NCBI GenBank assembly: GCA_038087875.1
Contig: CM075990.1
Coordinates: 3,040,001-3,104,000 of the forward strand
Direction of reading: 5' to 3'
DNA length: 64,000 nt
Source: Malacoraja senta
Taxonomy: Eukaryota
In this document: one piece after another, positions 977 through 59,931 of the stretch
How positions within the stretch are numbered: position 1 is the stretch's first letter
How the letters are laid out: every line of letters starts with the position of its first letter
Translations under genes and position numbers: made by a program
Notes under the pieces: model-generated
Told to the model about the DNA's origin: nothing
Database searches by the model: none
What the model saw: the letters and a program-made list of their open reading frames with translations, nothing else

Positions 977-1085
977 GGGGCCAAATGGCTTACCACAACA
1001 CCTCTTATGGACGTGGAAATAAACCAGACCACTGGGTTGAAGGAAAGAGCGTTCACGTCGCGGCCCTGTTTCCACCAATCTTTCC
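977..1085 (+). ncRNA. Predicted HDV/CPEB3-like self-cleaving ribozyme with long J1/2
   Basis: P1 GGGGCC(977-982)/GGCCCT(1062-1067); P2 GGAAAGA(1042-1048)/TCTTTCC(1079-1085); P3 GCG/CGC around L3 TTCACGT(1052-1058); G1068 for P1.1; J4/2 C1075-CAA. Confidence 0.8.
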
Positions 1086-1220
1086 ACCACCACGCACAAG
1101 AAGCACAAGAAGCGCAAGAAGCGCAAGACGCCATTGTACGCAGATGCCGAGAAGTGCGATCAGCTCTGGCTGAACAACTTCTAATCTTGTGTGTGGACTC
1201 GAAGAAGAAGAAGAAGAAGA
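977..1220 (+). mobile_element. Short non-autonomous (GAA)n-tailed retroelement, Vingi/Ingi-like, with 5' HDV-like ribozyme
   Basis: Starts with ribozyme P1 GGGGCC; 3' part reads LYADAEKCDQLWLNNF* (1134-1184), resembling a LINE ORF C-terminus; ends in (GAA)n 1201-1220; no clear TSD. Confidence 0.7.
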
Positions 1221-1776
1221 CCAGAGCACTCAAAGGAAACTCAGGCAGTCACTGCGTTAACGTGCAAACTCCACACAAACAGCAGCCATGGTCAGGACTG
1301 AACCTGGTTTGCCAAGCTCTGAGGCAGCGGCTTCCTCTGGCAGCTCATTCCAGTTGGGGACTACACTCTGGGTGAAAACGTTGCCCCTGAAGTCCCTCTT
1401 AAATCTCTCCCCTCTCACCTTAAACCTGTGCCCTCTAAATTGTGAATACTCTACGCTGGAAGAAACACTGTGAGCGTTCACTTTATTCATGACTCTCACG
1501 GTTTTGTATCGGAAGGAACTGCAGATGCTGGTTTACGCTGAAGATACACACTGGAATAACTCAGCGGGTCAGGCAGCATCTCTGAAGAAAACGAATAGGT
1601 GGCGTTTCGGGTCATGACCCTTCTTTCTTAGTCTTCTCCAGAGATGTTGGCTGACCCGTTAAATCCCTCACGATCTTGTACACCTCAATAAGGTCACACC
1701 TCAGCCTCCAAAGCTTCAAAGATAAGGTCCCAGCCTATCCAACCTCTTCCTACAACACAAGCCTGCAAGCTGAGGC

Positions 1777-6226: not shown

Positions 6227-6782
6227 CAAGCTCCTTTACAGCAGTCTGTGTTACAGAAATTCACAGCTACCGAAAAAATCAGGAATACAGAATAAAAATT
6301 CACTGAAATTTAAGTGAAAAAAATCTTTTCAACTCCCTTGTCACATGTGCAGATGATATGGCTTTGCCTTATGGAAAATCACAACACAGATTATTTCCCC
6401 GCAAACTAACCCTCTTCTATTGCAGGGGCCACCTGTACTTACGAAAGGATAGATTGTAGAAGTAAAGACTATTTTTGTACTGGTACACGCATGTGCATTC
6501 TGGTTACGTATGGACATCAGGTACACAATGAATCTTACGGGGGAAACCTTCACAGTGTTTTGCTACTCTACTCCAAAGACATACAGTTTTCGGTCCTGAC
6601 CACGGGTGCTGTCTGTACGGAGTTTGTACGTTCTCCCTGTAACCTCGTGGGTTTTCTCAAGGTGCTCCGGTTTCCCCCCACACACCAAAGACGTACAAGT
6701 TTGTAGGTTAATTGGCTTTGGTAAAAATTGTAAATTGCCCCTTGTGTGTAGGATAGTGCCACTGTATGGGGATCGCTGGTCA

Positions 6783-7835
6783 GCGTGGCAGGCAGTGACT
6801 AGTGGGGTACCGCAAGGCTCGGTGCTGGGACCGCAGCTATTTACAATATACATCAATGATTTGGATGAAGGGATTCAAAGTAACATTAGCAAATTTACAG
6901 ATGACACAAAGCTGGGTGGCAGTGTGAACTGTGAGGAAGATGCTATGAGAATGCAGGGTGACTTGGACAGGTTGGGGGAGTGGACAGATGCATGGCAGAT
7001 GAAGTTTAATGCGGAAAAATGTGAGGTTATCCACTTTGGTAGCAAAAACAGGAAGGCAGATTACTATCTAATGGCGTCAAGTTGGGAAAAGGGGAAGTAC
7101 AACATGATCTGGGTGTCCTTGTTCATCGGTCAATGAAAGTAAGCATGCAGGTACAGCAAGCAGTGAAGAAAGCGAATGACATGTTGGCCTTCATATCAAG
7201 AGTAGTTGAGTATAGGAGCAAAGAGGTCCTTATGCAGTTGACCAGAGCCCTAGTGAGACCACACCTGGAGTATTGTGTGCAGTTTTGGTCCCCTAATTTG
7301 AGGAAGGACATTCTTGCTATTGAGGGAGTGCAGCGTAGGTTTACAAGGTTAATTCCCGGGATGGCGGGACTGTCATATGCTGAGAGAATGGAGCAGCTGG
7401 GCTTGTGCACTCTGGAGTTTAGAAGGATGAGAGGGCATCTCATTGAAACATATAAGATTGTTAAGGGTTTGGACACGTTAAAGGCAGGAAACATGTTCCC
7501 GACGTTGGGGGAGTCCAGAACCAGGGGCCACAGTTTAAGAATAAGGAGTAAGCCATTTAGAACGGAGACGAGGAAACACTTTTTCTCACAGAGAGTGGTG
7601 AGTCTGTGGAATTCTCTGCCTCAGAGGGCGGTGGAGGCATGTTCTTTGGATGCTTTCAAGAGAGAGCTAGATAGGGCTTAAAAATAGCAGAGTCAGGGGA
7701 TATGGGGAGAAGGCAGGAACGGGGTACTGATTGGGGATGATCAGTCATGATCACATTGAATGGCAGTGCTGGCTCGAAGGGCCGATGGCCTACTCCTGCA
7801 TCTATTGTCTATTGTCTATTGTCTATTGTCTATTG
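6783..7835 (+). mobile_element. CR1 LINE 3' ~1 kb with RT C-terminal part, frameshifted
   Basis: SGVPQGSVLGPQLFTIYINDL and SKFTDDTKL RT motifs; continues in ORF 7082-7681; (ATTGTCT)n tail 7803-7835. Confidence 0.95.
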
Positions 7836-11543: not shown

Positions 11544-12424
<881 letters not shown>

Positions 12425-13544
12425 TATTTATGTGCATTTTGTGAGTGTGTATTTGTATATAAACATGTGTACATGTATGTGTGTTCGCCTATTACCTTGA
12501 GCATGTGTGTGCTTGTATGTTTTCATTTAGTTTAGTTTAGTTTAGAGATACAGCACGTAAACAGGCCCTTCAGCCCACCGAGTCCGTGCCGACCAGCGAT
12601 CCCCCCATACACTAGCACCACCCTACACACACTAGGGGACAATTTTACACTCATACCAAGTCAAGCACCCTACCAACCAACACGTCTTTGGAGTATGTAA
12701 GCGCTGTGTGGCAGCAACTCTACCGCTGCGCCACCGTTCCGCCCGTGTGTGGGAAGTGTGCTGGAAGCTGTATCATAGTTTGGAGTTTCTAACCTTGCAG
12801 CTCCATCTATTCCTCTTGTAATGTTCTTCTCTGAACTATAATCTCCTTTCTGCTGCTCTTCCCTGTTGTGCAAATGTGGTTTTTTTTTTTTTTTTTCCCT
12901 GATCTTTATTTTTTAATGTCCATCCTCTCTGGACTAGTAATGTTCCTTCTTATTCCTTGTTCTCCCATCTCTGTTAATTCATCACCATCTGCCTCAGCAT
13001 CTGTTTCTAAAATATAAAAAAAAAGAACGCGGTCTGCATACAATGCCTTTTGCTTCTTTTTTGCCTGTTTCCTCAATTTCCCTGTCAGAGGCTGCATCTT
13101 CCCCCCACCCCCCCCCTGCTTTTGTTCCTTAAGCCTTCAATCCACCCCTTTCCGAAACCGGCCTTTCGCTCCTTTGATTTCTGTGTCTCCGTGCGTCCTC
13201 CCCCCCCACCCTACCACCCCCTCACACAACAGTGTCTGAGTCCTATTGCACACCTATCTGGTGACGGAGGGAGAGGAGGGCTGGATTTGGGGGTGGGAGA
13301 GGGGCGTGGGGGAATGAATGTGCTCCCTCTCTAGCCCCCTATCCCGGACCAAACTCCACTTAATAACTGGAGCCGGGTCGAAAGGTGGAAAGGAACAGAG
13401 AGGGAAGAGTTTCAAAGACAATAAGAACCGGGTTTAACTCTGACGGGGTCCGCAAAGGCCGGCAATTCTTCCTGAGCGGTGCTGAAAAAGTAGGCCCCAC
13501 TGTTTCACTGGACCGAGGGACGAAGTTATCATGAGTGGTCGAGG

Positions 13545-18389: not shown

Positions 18390-18955
18390 CAATAGACAAT
18401 AGATAATAGACAATAGGTGCAGGAGTAGGCCATTCGGCCCTTCGAGCCAGCACTTCGAGACATGGCTGATCATCCCCAATCAGTACCCCGTTCCTGCCTT
18501 CTCCCCATATCCCCTGACTCTGCTATCTTTAAGAGCCCTATCAAGCTCTCTCTTGAAAGTATCCAGAGAACTGGCCTCCACCGCCCTCTGAGGCAGAGAA
18601 TTCCACAGACTCACAACTCTCTGTGAGAAAAAGTGTTTCCTCGTCTCCGTTCTAAATGGCTTACCCCTTATTCTTCAACTGTGGCCCCTGGTTCTGGACT
18701 CCCCCAACATCGGGAACATGTTTCCTGCCTCTAGCGTGTCCAAACCCTTAACAATCTTATATGTTTCAATAAGATTCCCTCTCATCCTTCTAAACTCCAG
18801 AGTGTACAAACCCAGCTGCTCCATTCTCTCAGCATATGACAGCCCCGCCATCCCGGGAATTAACCTTGTAAATCTACGCTGCACACCCTCAATAGCAAGA
18901 ATGTCCTTCCTCAAATTAGGGGACCAAAACTGCACACAATACTCCAGGTGTGGTC
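18390..18955 (-). mobile_element. CR1 3' fragment
   Basis: RPHLEYCVQFWSP..RRMRGNLIETYKI; AGACAAT tail. Confidence 0.92.
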
Positions 18956-20054
18956 TCCTGCAAATGTGCAGGAGAGACCATATTGACTGGTTGCTTCGAC
19001 TGGTTTGGCAATTCGAATGCCCAAATAAATGATCACAAAATGTGTTGAACACTGCCCAGTCCATCACGGATACTGATCTCCCCACCATTGAAGGGATCAG
19101 CAGGAGGCTCTTTCTCAAAAAGGCAGCCAGCATCATCAGAGACCCACACCACCCTGGCCACGCTCTCATTTCACTCCTGCTGTAGGGAAGATGGTATAGG
19201 AGCCTGAAAACCATGACATCTAGTTTTGGGTAACCCTTGCCTTCCCTCCCTCTCCATCCCACCCCCTTCCCAGTTCTCCGACCAGTCGGAAAGTCCCTGA
19301 TTACATTTTATCTCTGGTTGCTTTGTTGTTACCTTCTCCCAGCTAACAATGGTCTATTTTACATGTTCCTTGGTCTCCATCCCCTTTGATGTCTCATTCT
19401 CACACCTTACACTTCCTTATCTCTATATCTCCCCTTCCCCTGACTCTCAGTCTCGACCCAAACATCACCCATTCCTACTGTCCAGAGATAGCTGCCTGTC
19501 CCGCTGAGTTACTCCAGCATTTTGTGTCTATCTTCGGATTAAACCAGCATCTGCAGTTCCTTCCTACACCTCTAATTTTGGGAACAGCTTCATCCCAATG
19601 AATATCAGTCTGTTGAACACTACAAACTCCAACTAAAGCCTTAAGCATAAACTGCCTGGGTCGCACTGGGAACACTGGGCTATGTTTCGTTTTTGCACTA
19701 TATCGTTATTTTTTTTAATTGAACATTTTTGTCTGTATGTTATATTATCCACTCAGCATTGTGGCTACAAACCCGTGGTGCCTCTGCTGCAAGTAAGAAT
19801 TGTCTTCCGAGTGACGCTGCCTGTCCCGCTGAGTTACTCCAGCATTTTGTATGCATTCAAGAGAGAGTTGGATATGCAGTAGCTCTTTGGGTTAACGGCA
19901 TCAAGAGACATGGGGAGAAAGCAGGAACGGGGTACTGATTTTGGATGATCAGCCATGATCATTGAATGGTGGTGCTGGCCTACTCCTGCACCTATTTCCT
20001 ATGTTTCTATCTGAAGTTCATTCCTACACAGAGTTTCATTCTTCTATTTCAATT

Positions 20055-20638: not shown

Positions 20639-22229
20639 CAGTGCATTCAGAAAGTATTCAGACCCCTCAACTTTTTCCACATTTTGTTACGTTACAGCCT
20701 TATTCTAAAATGGATGAAATTCATTTTTTTTATCATCAATCCACACACAATACCCCATAATAAAAAAGCAGACAGGTGTTTGGAAATTTTTGCAAAGTAA
20801 TTAAAAATAAATAACTGAAATATCACATTTACATAAGTATTCAGACCCTTTACTCAGTACTTTGTTGAGGCACCTTTGGCAGCGATTACAGCCTCAAGTC
20901 TTCTTGGGTATGACGCTACAAGCTTGGCACACCTGTATTTGGGTAATTTCTCCCATTCTTCTCTGCAGATCCTCTCAAGCTCTGTCAGGTTGGATGGGGA
21001 GCGTCGATGCACAGCTATTTTCAGGTCCCTCCAGAGATGTTCGTTCGGGTTCAAGTCCGGGCTCTGGCTGGGCCATTCAAGGACATTCACAGACTTGTCA
21101 CAAAGCCACTCCTGCGTGGTCTTGTCTGTGTGCTTTGGGTCGTTGTCCTGTTGGAAGGTGAACCTCCGCCCCAGTCTGATGTCCAGAACACTCTGGAGCA
21201 GGTTTTCATCAAGGATCTCTCTGTACTTTGCTCCGTTCATCTTTCCCTCGATCCTGACTAGTCTCCCAGTTCCTGTCGCTGAAAAACATCCCCACAGCAT
21301 GATGCTGCCACCACCATGCTTTACCGTATATATGGTATTGGCCAGGTGATGAGCGGTGCCTGGTTTCCTCCAGACGTGACGCTCGGCATTCAGGCCAAAG
21401 AGTTCAATCTTGGTTTCATCAGACCAGAGAATCTTGTTTCCCATGGTCTGAGAGTCCTTTAGGTGCCTTTTGGCAAACTCCAAGCGGGCTGTCATTGCCT
21501 TTTACTGAGGAGTGGCTTCCGTCTGGCCACTCTACCATAAAGGCCTGATTGGTGGAGTGCTGCAGATATAGTTGTCCTTCTGGAAGGTTCTCCTATCTCC
21601 ACAGAGGAACTCTGGAGCTCTGTCAGATTGACCATTGGGTTCTTGGTCACCTCCCTGACCAAGGCCCGTCTCCCACGATTGCTCAGTTTGTCCGGGCAGC
21701 CAGCTCTATGAAGAGTCCTGGTGGTTCCAAAGTTCTAGCATTTAAGAATGACGGAGGCCACTGTGCTCTTTGGGACCTGCAATGCTGCGGAAATTGTTTT
21801 ATACCCTTCCCCAGATCTGTGTCTCAACACAATCCTGTCTCGGAGGTCTACAGACAATTCCTTCGTCTTCATGGCTTGGTTTATCTCTGACATGCACTGT
21901 CAACTGTGGGACCTTATATAGACAGATGTGTGCCTTTCCAAATCATGTCCAATCAATTTAATTTACCACTGGTGGACTCCAATCAAGTTGTAGAAACATC
22001 TCAAGGATAATCAATGGAAACAGGATGAATCTAAGCTCATTTTTGAGTGTCATAGCAAAGGGTCTGAATAGTTATATAAATGTGATATTCCAGTTTTTGT
22101 ATCTTCATTCTGGGGTATAGTGTGTGGATTGATGATAAAAAAAATGAATTTAATCCAATTTAAAATAAGGCTGTAACGTAACAAAATGTGGAAAAAGTGA
22201 AGGGGTCTGAATACTTTTTGAATGCACTG
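20639..22229 (-). mobile_element. Full-length Tc1 (IR/DR-type) DNA transposon, 1591 bp
   Basis: Long TIRs starting CAGTGCATTCA; TA TSDs 20637-20638 and 22230-22231; inner repeats of tattcagaccc at ~20838 and ~22060. Confidence 0.97.
20854..21872 (-). pseudogene. Tc1 DD34E transposase, disabled
   Basis: MKTKELSVDLRDRIV start at 21872; [25 protein letters not shown] with 34 residues between D and E; stop TAG 21735-21737 and frameshift near 21496. Confidence 0.95.
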
Positions 22230-38109: not shown

Positions 38110-38958
38110 ACTTGCTGCAGCACAACAGAATATGTAAACCTAGTACACTGCAAACCATCTAATAAACGAGAGAGAAAAAAGTTCCGTGAGCGTATATATA
38201 TACACATACTCACAAATACACTCATATATGTACTCATATATATTGTGAGTATATATACACACATACGCACACACAACGGGAGGAAAAAAGTTCAGTGTGT
38301 ATATATACACATGCACACATACTCAATAAACAAACAACTATAGTGCAATAATAATAATAATAATCTATTGTAGTTCGGAGCTTATTTGTTGTTGTGTTTA
38401 ATAGCCTGATGGCTGTAGGGAAGAAGCTGTTCCTGAACCTGGACGTTACAGTTTACAGGCTCCTGTACCTTCTTCCCGATGGCAGCGGTGAAATGAGTGT
38501 GTGGCCAGGATGGTGTGGGTCTCTGATGATGTTGGCTGCCTTTTTGAGGCAGCTACTTCGATAGATCCCTTCGATGGTGGGGAGGTCAGAGCCAGTGATG
38601 GACTGGGCAGTGGTCACAACTTTTTGCAGTCTTTTCCGCTCGTGGACGTTCAAGTTGCCGAACCAGGCCACGATGCAACCAGTCAGCATGCTCTCTACTG
38701 TGCACCTGTAGAAGTTCATGAGAATCCTCTTTGACAAACCGACTCTCCGTAATCTTCTCAGGAAGCAGAGGCGCTGATGTGCTTTCTTTATGATTGCATC
38801 AGTGTGCTGGGTCCAGGAAAGATCTTCAGAAATATGCAGGAATTTGAAGTATTTAACCCTCTCCACCATCGTCCCATTGATATAAACAGGATTGTGGGTC
38901 CTCATCCTTCCTCTTCCAAGGTCCACAATCAGTTCCTTGGTTTTACTGATGTTGAGAG
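38110..38958 (-). mobile_element. Rex-Babar LINE 3' fragment
   Basis: ORF 38453-38971: LNISKTKELIVD..KAHQRLCFLRRLR..LPSGRRYRSL. Confidence 0.9.
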
Positions 38959-40800
38959 CCACCAGGACCATGTCTGAACATCATGAGGTGTTGATTAGGA
39001 AGCAGACTCGTCCATCCTTTATGAAGTCTGAAGAAAGGTCTCGACCCATTCCTTCTCTCCAAAGATGCTGCCTGTCCCGCTGACTTACTCCAGCATTTTG
39101 TGTCCATCTTCGGTTTAAGCCAGCATCGGCAGTTCCTTCCTACACAGATTTTTGAGCCTCAGTTTCTGCTTGTAAGCAGGGAGAAGGTTTTCTAAACTGC
39201 GGGCAGGGCATGGAGCGGTAACATCGTTGATGGGTGTATAACAGTGATCAAGGCTGCCTGGGTCTTTGGTGGGACTTTGACAGCATACTCTTGAAGCTGA
39301 CTTGTAGACCCAGGCTACGAAGAACTAGGCCTCGAGGCGTATCATTTCAAGGCTCTTGGTAGCAGCATAGACTTCATTTGGAGCAAGCTAATGAAGGACG
39401 GCACGGTGGCGAAGCGGTAGAGTTGCTGCTTTACAGCGCCAGAGACCCGGGTTCGATCCTGACTACAGGTGCTGTCTGTGCAGAGTTTGTTCATTCTCCC
39501 CATGACCGCGTGCATCTTCCCCAAGTGCTCTGGCCTGCTCCCACACTACAAAGACGTGCGGGTTTGTAGGTCAATGGGCTTCGGTACAGATTCTCAACTG
39601 CCCCGAGTGAGCAGGACAGTGCTAGCGTGTGTGGGGATCACTGGTCAGTGCGGTCCAGTGGGCCGAAGGGCCTCTTTCCACACTGCATCTCTCCAAATCT
39701 GCGTGGGGTGGCATTTAAACTGAAGTCAGCAGAGCCAGGAGGTGGTAGGCGATAGGAACGGCACCTCACCGTCAGATATCACAGGTCCAGGAGGCAAGAA
39801 CTCGCCAGGACCATGTCTGAACAAGAGCTGATGATTAGGAAGCAGGCTTGTCCATCCTTTGCCTGCTTAAGGGCACCATAGGTGAATTGAGAACCCCTTA
39901 GATAGTGTGGCACGCCTGAGAGGATGTGGGGGGTGGGGGGGGGGGGGGGGCAGCGGAAACATGCTGGGCTAATAATCCTGAGGTTGATTGATCAAAACCA
40001 CCCTCTGCTATACAGTAATGTACATTTTTGGGGCGGCACGATGGCGTAGCAGTGGAGCAGAGACCCTGACTAAAGGTGCTGTCTGTACGGAGTTTGTACG
40101 TTCTCCCCGTGACCTGCGTGGGTTTTCTCCGAGATCTTCGGTTTCCTCCCACACTCTAAAGGCGTACGGGTTTGTAGGTCAATTGGCTTGGTATAAATGT
40201 AAATTGTGCTTAGTGCGTCTACGGGCAGTGTTAATGTGTGGGGATCGCTGGTCGGTGCGGACGCGGCGGGCCGCAGGGCCTGTTTCCGTGCTGTATCTCT
40301 AAACTAAACCAAAACTAAATGTAGGAGTGAGCCATGTCTCTGTAAAACAGAGCATGCTGCCTCTTCTCAGTTCCCAGAGGGAGGCAAGTCAACACAATGT
40401 TTCTATTCTTTGAAGGAGACTTGGAGAACATCCTTAAGAAATGTTCTCCTGGTAATTCCTAGCAGTGGTTGGGTTGGGAATAAACCTTATTCTTTGGGGG
40501 TCTGGTATTGGGAATGCATGCAAGTGATATGACAGATATTCTGTATTAGAGCTAGCTAGGTCTAATCAGATCCTCAATGCTAGGGTTATTGTCCTGGGAG
40601 AAGAATCTAATGTTGGTTCCATCATGCTGCCAATGGATTTTAGAGAATTTACACAGACAGGTTTGGTGGCTTTTCTCCAGAGTTTTGCATTGAATGCATT
40701 TGGTGGAACTATTTTAGTTCAGTCTAGTTTAGTTTATTGTCACGTGTACCGAGGTACAGTGAAAAGCTTTTGTTGCGTGCTAACCAGTCAGCGGAAAGAC

Positions 40801-58729: not shown

Positions 58730-59931
58730 TTTTTTATTTTATTTTTTTTAATTTTATTTTTTTTATTTTTTTGTTAGAAGTATTGTACATTACAGTAATC
58801 TGCAATAACAGAAGTTTATACAGTCCTTGTACCACTTCTTATTTTAAACTTTAATAGGAAAAAAGGATAGAAAGAGTTAGTAAAGATAGTCAGTGAGTGA
58901 ATGAAAGAGTGGTCCAGGAACACCCATATGGACCTAAACCACAAGAAATAGTTAAAAAAGAAAAGAAAAAAAACAAAAGGAGGAAAAAGAAAAAAGAAAA
59001 AAGAAAGTAAGATAGGACAAAATGAGAGGGATGTACCTACTTCTTATCTTTACTCACCCCTCGCCAGGTCCTAAAACCATTTATTATCAACATTTTGTTG
59101 CACCCTATGTTTGTAATAAGTCGATATATGGAGACCAAATCTTTTGGAATTGGTCTTGTTTACCTGCTAGGAGGAAACTCATATCTTCTAGGTGTAACAA
59201 TTCCGACATGTTAGAAGTCCACATTTTTATTATTGGCGTGGGAGCATTTTTCCAAAATTTCAGTATCAGTTTTTTTGCCGTTATTAAGCCATAATTAAGA
59301 AAACTCCTTTGAAACGAAGTCAGCTCCAAACTTGCTTCTATTGTTCCAAAAATAATCAATTCTGCATTTGGTTTCAGTTTTATTTTAAATAATGTAGTGA
59401 AAATTTCAAACATTTCATTCCAAAATTTTTGAATTTTTATACAAAAAACAAAAGAATGTGCTATAGTTGATTCTTGGATTAGGCATTTATCACAGATAGC
59501 AGAGGTATTTGGGTAAAATTTACTTAATTTAGCTTTTGAATAGTATAATCTATGTAAAATTTTAAATTGAATCAGAGTATGTCTTATGTTAATCGAGCAT
59601 TTATGCAAATATAATAGGTCTTTCGAGATTTTTATAGCTAGTTCCTGTTCCCATTCTCTTCTAATCCCATCCGATGAAGGAATTTCTATGTTTAAAATGG
59701 AATTGTATAGGTATGATATTAAATTAGCTGATTCCGCTTTTATATTCATTATCCCATCTAATAGGTCAGGAGACATATTTTGATATTCTCGTGTATATTT
59801 GAAATATTGATTACTATTCAAGTTGTATTTAAGTTGTAGTTGGTGAAATGTTTTAAAAACTTTCATTTTCATACATATCTCCAGACGTTTTAATTCCTAC
59901 TCTTTCCCAATTTATAAATTTATTGGGAAAA
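58730..59931 (-). mobile_element. 5'-truncated L1, ORF2 C-terminus
   Basis: ORF 59105-59872 (QFKILHRLY, CDKC..H..C); A-rich tail; 15-bp TSD agtgagatgactttc 58715-58729 / 59932-59946. Confidence 0.93.

What the first reader, a model, noticed from the sequence alone, without database searches (positions are those of the whole stretch)
977..1220. Retroelement headed by an HDV-like ribozyme with a CPEB3-type core
Seen in sequence: a complete nested double-pseudoknot layout. P1 GGGGCC/GGCCCT starts with G·U, P2 GGAAAGA/TCTTTCC is a perfect 7 bp, P3 GCG/CGC closes L3 TTCACGT, G1068 allows a 1-bp P1.1, P4 is vestigial and a candidate catalytic C1075 sits in C-CAA. J1/2 is ~59 nt. Downstream are a 9-bp tandem repeat, a LINE-like C-terminal remnant (..QLWLNNF*) and a (GAA)n tail. 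Established: HDV-like ribozymes process the 5' ends of R2, RTE and Ingi-type retrotransposons. From memory, the mammalian CPEB3 ribozyme has the same GCG-UUCACGU-CGC core. Inference: this is a non-autonomous 'ribozyme-SINE' that releases itself from host transcripts instead of using a Pol III promoter, and its family may bear on the origin of the CPEB3 ribozyme.
Basis: partly seen in the sequence, partly recalled or inferred. Interest (0 to 1): 0.9.

Follow-up and report, generated by a model that had tools for sequence, protein, structure and literature searches.

The report
Ribozyme-headed mini-retrotransposon resembling CPEB3 ribozyme
This is a damaged copy of a short jumping gene that begins with a predicted self-cutting RNA, and its full-length relatives carry an RNA so similar to the mammalian CPEB3 ribozyme, which is linked to memory, that they probably reveal where that ribozyme came from.

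Summary
Real, but the 5' end was misplaced. The element spans 1034-1219, bounded by an 11-bp target-site duplication, inside an older SINE. The family has at least 463 copies with a perfect head. The family head is a 52-nt HDV-like fold (6-bp P1, 2-nt J1/2, no P4). This copy's own P1 is broken, so it is probably inactive. The last ~70 nt come from a single-ORF endonuclease-RT LINE with Vingi features, so this is a two-part non-autonomous LINE, a known class (SIDE, RIME, NARTc). The larger result: several such LINE families in this genome carry HDV-like folds at their 5' ends, with strong covariation across families. One family with intact ORFs scores 41-64 bits on Rfam's mammalian CPEB3 model (cut-off 35). 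A published crocodilian Vingi 5' end matches the CPEB3 consensus at 38 of 40 and 14 of 14 positions. The CPEB3 ribozyme is therefore probably a domesticated Vingi 5' end. I did not find this stated in the papers I could search. No cleavage was measured.

The parts
1034..1219 (+). Whole element: two-part non-autonomous LINE derivative, 186 bp
1023..1033 (.). Target-site duplication, left copy (11 bp, one mismatch)
1034..1039 (+). True P1 5' strand; G1034 is the predicted cleavage-site G. Positions 4 and 6 differ from the family and break two pairs
1040..1041 (+). J1/2, 2 nt
   Evidence: copy L026
1042..1048 (+). P2 5' strand (7 bp with 1079-1085)
1049..1061 (+). P3-L3-P3' core; 1048-1066 is identical over 19 nt to the Rfam CPEB3 consensus
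   Evidence: alignment
1062..1068 (+). P1 3' strand (6 nt) and G1068, which can pair with C1054 as a 1-bp P1.1
1069..1078 (+). Short linker in place of P4, then J4/2 CCAA with candidate catalytic C1075 (kept in 50 of 52 copies)
   Evidence: catalytic role inferred from homology
1079..1085 (+). P2 3' strand; end of the 52-nt fold
1086..1141 (+). Middle part with a 9-bp tandem repeat (1094-1128, 3.9 units; number varies among copies); origin not found
1142..1200 (+). 3' end of the partner LINE: last codons of the ORF, stop at 1182-1184, short 3' UTR
   Evidence: 69 of 77 bases identical to L094
1201..1219 (+). (GAA)n tail
   Evidence: same tail on the partner LINE
1220..1230 (.). Target-site duplication, right copy
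977..982 (+). NOT part of the element: chance hexamer at the edge of the host SINE that can pair with 1062-1067

Best explanation
The element is a short internal-deletion derivative of a Vingi-type LINE: a 5' HDV-like ribozyme fold joined to the last ~70 nt of the LINE and its GAA tail. Shown: the boundary, the target duplications, the shared 3' end, and HDV-like folds at the 5' ends of related autonomous LINEs. Inferred: a master copy was transcribed from a host promoter, the 52-nt fold cut the RNA just before G1 to free a unit-length RNA, and the partner LINE's protein bound the shared 3' end and inserted it by target-primed reverse transcription. Copies then decayed neutrally. This copy has a broken P1 and probably no longer cleaves. 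The mammalian CPEB3 ribozyme most likely descends from the 5' end of a LINE of this clade.
For: Boundary and duplications; 52 of 56 copies reach G1, and 22 of 26 of those picked on the 3' end only. 463 exact matches to the first 35 bases, 0 for the reversed control. Partner 3' end with a C-terminal Cys/His motif, same stop, UTR and tail. Its best full-length protein relatives have endonuclease and RT domains and no RNase H hit. Autonomous family A is 3,224 bp with a 1,008-aa open frame and its five heads score 40.7-64.2 bits on RF00622. Across 14 heads from 7 families and 2 isolated heads, 14 of 18 pairs change on both sides and 88% of cells pair; 0 of 500 shuffles reach this and slid registers pair 34-50%. 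The Vingi-2_Gav 5' end printed in a supplement of PMC5786205 has the same layout. A 6-bp P1 and a missing P4 both occur among R2 ribozymes (PMC3774820). In a consensus-type copy P1 forms with probability ~1.0; in this copy 0.0 for either P1 (pseudoknot-free model).
Against: No cleavage was measured. Within the family there is no covariation or selection signal (non-CpG divergence 2.5% in the head, 2.3% in the 3' part); this is expected for dead copies but means the family alone cannot prove function. P1 is one pair shorter than in CPEB3 and holds two G-U pairs, P1.1 is one pair and P4 is gone, so the fold may be weak. In polyA reads of one run set, 86 reads ran on upstream of G1 and no pile-up of starts was seen. 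The direct partner's own 5' end was not recovered. No tree against named Vingi, Ingi or RTE proteins was built. The alignment holds several copies per family and hand-cut ends, so its counts are not independent events.
Confidence: 0.72

Rival explanations
1. Same element, but the shortened head is catalytically dead. It is a relic of the parent's 5' UTR that survived as an internal Pol II promoter or as a signal for the LINE protein, and that is why copies start at G1.
For: Loss of one P1 pair and all of P4 against family A and CPEB3. The equivalent 77 nt of L1Tc act as promoter as well as ribozyme (PMC4035085 passages). Reads run through G1 in polyA RNA. A tRNA-headed SINE with a Vingi head, where cleavage would be harmful, also has the 6-nt P1'.
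Against: P1, P2, P3, P1.1 and C-N-A-A all still pair or stand in register in the family majority sequence despite the two deletions. Both P1 strands are 6 nt, so the shortening is matched. Another autonomous family seems to have a 6-bp P1 too (L112, L120, read by eye). P4-less and 6-bp-P1 ribozymes have precedents.
Confidence: 0.2
2. One reading: this copy cleaves at G977, using a flank-supplied P1 strand and a 59-nt J1/2, as R2 elements use 28S sequence for P1.
For: The hexamer pairs perfectly (-10.8 kcal/mol against -6.9 for the native strand) and the descriptor accepts it. Flank-supplied P1 exists in R2 (PMC3774820).
Against: It lies outside the target duplication, in 1 of 52 copies. It is predicted to be locked in a local hairpin, P1 probability 0.0. 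Long J1/2 linkers slow cleavage unless structured to pinch P1 and P2 (PMC4908430 passage).
Confidence: 0.06
3. The CPEB3 likeness is convergence on a small constrained fold, not descent.
For: The core is only 13 nt and partly forced by catalysis. This window's copy scores only 19.2 bits. No LINE remnant around mammalian CPEB3 was tested.
Against: Sister families in the same genome use other cores and stems and score 29 bits or less, or nothing, so the CPEB3 letters are not forced. Vingi-2_Gav matches at 38 of 40 and 14 of 14 positions, including P1, P2 and J4/2, and SINE2-1_AMi has the same 7-bp P4 stem (hand count).
Confidence: 0.12

Closest known systems
SIDEs of R2 (Eickbush and Eickbush 2012, PMC3414825; abstract read)
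   Same: 5' HDV-like ribozyme joined to a LINE 3' end, non-autonomous, spread by target-primed reverse transcription.
   Different: SIDEs sit in rDNA of Drosophila and derive from R2/R1; this family is dispersed in hundreds to thousands of copies in a vertebrate-sized genome and derives from an endonuclease-RT LINE.
RIME, NARTc and SIDERs of the Ingi/L1Tc clade (PMC4035085; passages read)
   Same: Short derivatives that keep a 5' HDV-like ribozyme; several were shown to cleave. Ingi is the sister clade of Vingi.
   Different: Trypanosomatid, 77-nt hallmark with P4; this head is 52 nt, lacks P4 and has a CPEB3-type core.
Vingi LINEs and their internal-deletion derivatives (PMC5786205 passages and supplement passage; PMC13708176 passages)
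   Same: Single ORF, endonuclease plus RT, no RNase H, about 3.1-3.2 kb; known to yield two-part non-autonomous forms; Vingi-2_Gav begins with the same fold.
   Different: [quoted passage not shown]
Mammalian CPEB3 ribozyme (Rfam RF00622)
   Same: Same topology, G1-U wobble, identical P3/L3, single-pair P1.1, 19-nt identical run; autonomous relatives pass the family's gathering score.
   Different: CPEB3 is single-copy, intronic and conserved, with 7-bp P1, a P4 stem and CGAA. The short element has 6-bp P1, no P4 and CCAA and falls below the cut-off.
Minimal P4-less HDV-like and theta ribozymes (PMC10879173; passages read)
   Same: No P4, about 50-60 nt.
   Different: Nearly 99% of those were in phages, beside tRNAs; this one heads an animal retroposon.

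Membership tests
HDV-like ribozyme | Nested double pseudoknot P1, P2, P3, P1.1 in the right order | tested here: met
   Family majority pairs in all helices; 25 of 52 copies fully intact; descriptor hit on L026
HDV-like ribozyme | Intact native P1 in this particular copy | tested here: not met
   T-C and G-G at pairs 4 and 6; P1 probability 0.0
HDV-like ribozyme | Catalytic C followed by purines in J4/2; U and G of L3 | tested here: met
   C in 50 of 52 copies; L3 U20 and G24 in 52 of 52
HDV-like ribozyme | Covariation of the stems | tested here: met
   Met across LINE families; absent within this young family
HDV-like ribozyme | Mg-dependent self-cleavage 5' of G1 | not testable with these tools
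   Needs an in vitro assay; the polyA reads laid showed no start pile-up
Rfam CPEB3_ribozyme RF00622 | Score at or above 35 bits (window copy) | tested here: not met
   19.2 bits; no gathering-level hit in the window
Rfam CPEB3_ribozyme RF00622 | Score at or above 35 bits (autonomous family A heads) | tested here: met
   5 of 5 family A heads, 40.7-64.2 bits; 1 isolated head 38.4; the other 10 of 16 sources below the cut-off or no hit
Two-part non-autonomous LINE (SIDE type) | 3' end shared with an autonomous LINE, tail and target duplications | tested here: met
Two-part non-autonomous LINE (SIDE type) | 5' end shared with the same autonomous LINE | tested here: inconclusive
   All 3 long partner copies fetched were 5'-truncated; homologous heads seen only on sister families
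Vingi clade | Single ORF with endonuclease and RT, no RNase H, about 3 kb | tested here: met
   Family A 3,224 bp, 1,008-aa frame; 4 of 4 protein relatives scanned have RT and endonuclease hits and no RNase H
Vingi clade | 5' end alike to a named Vingi element | tested here: met
   Vingi-2_Gav nt 2-74, compared by eye
Vingi clade | RT tree groups with named Vingi, sister to Ingi | not tested
   No named reference protein came from any call
Pol III SINE | tRNA-, 5S- or 7SL-derived head | tested here: not met
   The element begins with the fold at G1; no tRNA or Rfam hit at cut-off in the window

The most novel reading that the evidence does not exclude
Vingi LINEs as a clade carry HDV-like ribozymes at their 5' ends, the mammalian CPEB3 ribozyme is a domesticated Vingi 5' end, and this short family is an animal retroposon that spread with an active 52-nt, P4-less version, leaving hundreds of cleavage-competent copies in the genome.
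Probability: 0.5. Interest if true: 0.82.

Novelty: new variant of a known kind. Interest (0 to 1): 0.64.

Why it matters
The papers I could read treat the CPEB3 ribozyme as mammal-specific and name no source, or speak of domestication only in general terms. A named donor clade with near-identical heads makes the origin testable: one can resurrect the donor, date the insertion, and ask whether activity was tuned down after capture. It also weakens the idea that CPEB3 is a unique source of the HDV fold in animals. Vingi elements are used as RNA-templated gene writers (PMC13708176), so a self-cleaving 5' UTR would bear on template design. A 52-nt natural ribozyme with hundreds of genomic variants is a ready mutational library.

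Tried and rejected
G977 as the element start: rejected. Search for a long-P4 version of this exact head in the genome: one search gave 8 matches and one search gave 3, all short-element variants; one search gave 2, one a short copy and one an isolated, different head (L110). Search for the direct partner's 5' end: 3 candidates fetched, all truncated; none of the 14 endonuclease-adjacent stretches carried this head. Metagenome scan for the core: 4 matches, 3 chance matches in GC-rich contigs, 1 true fold. Plain folding of 977-1086 was uninformative (z -0.03; pseudoknots not modelled). Sequencing runs: no RNA holder listed; the one raw RNA set laid was polyA and of a coded organism, unsuited to find cleavage ends. 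PDB search gave only distant L1, R2 and group II RTs. Earlier findings of this scan: nothing. Webb 2009, Ruminski 2011, Webb and Luptak 2011 and the 2011 Vingi paper were not held. No tree was built.

Full report
OBSERVATION. The tandem repeat is 1094-1128, period 9, 3.9 copies. Rfam gives one relevant match, CPEB3_ribozyme at 1021-1085, 19.2 bits, E 0.025, below the gathering score of 35; it already placed P1 near 1033, not 977. A descriptor for the HDV fold that I wrote hits only this place in the window and found nothing in 20 resampled 64-kb sequences. The fold is more than chance.

TRUE BOUNDARIES. The window lies in a 1.94-Gb genome; its SINEs look like those of rays and skates (recalled, from no call). 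A search with 960-1225 gave 2,081 first-look candidates, 40 scored; matches began at query 64-85, none near 977. All 29 other copies aligned begin at the equivalent of G1034 with unrelated flanks. Of 87 loci examined, 82 were distinct; 71 had both ends, and 57 of these have a direct repeat of 9 or more bases abutting G1, mostly 10-13 bp, against 14 of 695 swapped-flank controls. Here it is 1023-1033 / 1220-1230. With the element removed, the flanks rejoin into one old SINE: 19 of 27 hits span the junction and the longest reaches window 980. Contigs of three other runs also break off into varied flanks at G1 (274, 21 and 5 records). The first 35 bases occur exactly 463 times, the reversed control 0 times.

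THE FOLD. In 56 copies (30 picked on the whole element, 26 on the 3' end), 52 reach G1. The majority head is 52 nt: 6-bp P1 starting G-U with a second G-U, 2-nt J1/2, 7-bp P2, 3-bp P3, 7-nt L3, one-pair P1.1, a short linker instead of P4, and CCAA. 25 of 52 keep every pair and the C (6 of 22 among those not picked on the head). Non-CpG divergence is 2.5% in the head and 2.3% in the 3' part, i.e. neutral decay; the sample is biased to close copies. This copy has T-C and G-G in P1. In a pseudoknot-free ensemble it is held in a local hairpin and neither P1 forms (probability 0.0), whereas copy L026 forms P1 at about 1.0. R2 ribozymes have P1 of 6 or 7 bp and some lack P4, and P1 mismatches go with loss of activity (PMC3774820, passages and one section).

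THE PARTNER. A pattern excluding the short element gave 17 matches, one of which (L092) continues upstream into a Cys/His-motif domain. That DNA has 84 candidates in the genome. Four fetched copies end in the same last codons, stop, UTR and GAA tail; identity to the window is 58-69 of 67-77 bases from about 1142 on. The domain's 11 protein relatives include full-length ones with endonuclease and RT and no RNase H hit, the architecture given for Vingi (PMC13708176, passages). The three longest partner copies fetched are 5'-truncated and decayed, so the partner's own head is not seen.

SISTER LINES CARRY THE FULL RIBOZYME. A relative found full-length elements in this genome. Family A is 3,224 bp with a 1,008-aa frame free of stops and a target duplication. 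Its 5' end is a complete HDV-like fold with 7-bp P1, the same P3/L3, a P4 stem and CGAA. All five heads score above the CPEB3 cut-off: 64.2, 63.8, 57.1, 52.6, 40.7 bits; positions 1-40 match the Rfam consensus at 33 (hand count, L103), with two-sided changes in P1. Other families carry HDV-like folds with different letters at the same place; my strict descriptor confirmed 5 of the 21 genome stretches tried, the rest being truncated, decayed or read by eye. On a sequence-only alignment of 14 heads, 88% of cells pair, 14 of 18 pairs change on both sides, 0 of 500 shuffles reach these values, and slid registers pair 34-50%. Related rows inflate these counts, but P1, P2 and P3 each vary between families while pairing.

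LINK TO CPEB3. The supplement of PMC5786205 (one passage seen) prints nt 2-74 of crocodilian Vingi-2_Gav and the alligator SINE2-1_AMi. Against the Rfam consensus lines, Vingi-2_Gav matches 38 of 40 positions from 2 to 41 and 14 of 14 at the 3' end; SINE2-1_AMi has the same 7-bp P4 stem (hand counts). That paper has no mention of CPEB3 in text or supplement and does not list Vingi among ribozyme-bearing clades. Sister families show that these letters are not forced by the fold. Heads of this type occur in this genome, in crocodilians and in an AT-rich animal-like metagenome contig (L074), while CPEB3 is mammalian, so LINE-to-host is the simpler direction (inference).

MECHANISM. Shown: anatomy, boundary, duplications, shared 3' end, covarying folds on related LINEs. 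From established knowledge: HDV-like ribozymes free R2 and L1Tc RNAs from host transcripts, and short derivatives keep them (PMC3414825 abstract; PMC4035085 passages). Inferred: the same cycle here, about 0.7 for an active family head and about 0.1 for this copy. Against: in 242 polyA reads, 86 ran on upstream of G1 and no start pile-up appeared; strands were not separated there and most pairs may be antisense, so this is weak. An internal promoter role is not excluded.

WHAT IS KNOWN. Two-part non-autonomous LINEs are reported from RTE, Ingi, Vingi and R2, so the class is known. New here are the P4-less 52-nt head on an animal retroposon and the specific Vingi-CPEB3 link. Eight literature searches were answered; 'Vingi' with 'ribozyme' listed 6 papers, none on this. 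Passages of PMC7761336 suggest domestication in general terms without a donor; passages of PMC4836649, PMC8256844, PMC13635239 and two preprints name none; PMC8233481 has no hit for 'transpos' (introduction read). Four key papers were not held, bioRxiv supplements are closed, and patents and Repbase reports were not searchable; lancelet ribozymes close to CPEB3 are recalled from Webb 2009. The link may therefore be in print.

VERDICT. Observation partly confirmed, interpretation partly supported. New variant of a known kind; interest 0.64, carried by a testable origin for the CPEB3 ribozyme rather than by this decayed copy.

Noticed in passing
L098 and L102 (family A 5' ends): The 26-nt unit from the end of P1 through P2, P3 and L3 is repeated head to tail 4 and about 6 times before the last complete fold. 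Both P1 strands hold the palindrome GATC, which may let the RT slip. L119 of another family shows a similar partial duplication.
   Followed up: partly
L104, L106, L112-L114, L116, L117, L119-L125: At least six further endonuclease-RT LINE families in this genome appear to begin with HDV-like folds of different sequence; one (L112, L120, L122) has the same P2 letters as CPEB3 and seemingly a 6-bp P1 with an A-U first pair.
   Followed up: partly
L094-L097, L126-L128: The partner LINE is closer to outside proteins (65-77% to P0001/P0004; P0005 is from a teleost) than family A of the same genome is (about 55%), which may mean horizontal transfer; no tree built.
   Followed up: no
copies L001-L090: The base before G1 is T in 44 of 71 copies and G in only 6; target duplications are mostly 10-13 bp; some copies have one extra base between the duplication and G1.
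   Followed up: partly
L110 (G000:C2:156808020) and L074:3484-3556: Two isolated, 5'-damaged CPEB3-type heads with P4 and the same P2 letters, one in this genome (38.4 bits) and one in an AT-rich metagenome contig. L110 lies about 1 kb from an opposite-strand LINE C-terminal match.
   Followed up: partly
supplement of PMC5786205: SINE2-1_AMi places a tRNA head before a Vingi head whose L3 is altered, as expected if cleavage had to be lost in a Pol III SINE.
   Followed up: no
window 20854-21501 (-): Open frame that looks like a Tc1/mariner transposase fragment (motif recalled, not scanned).
   Followed up: no
window 6600-7681, 18675-19307, 38453-38980, 59105-59896: Fragments that look like CR1/L2-type and other LINE reading frames; many copies of an old SINE with TAAAC tails fill the window; no host exon was identified.
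   Followed up: no
window 11545-12425: An 880-bp GT microsatellite array.
   Followed up: no
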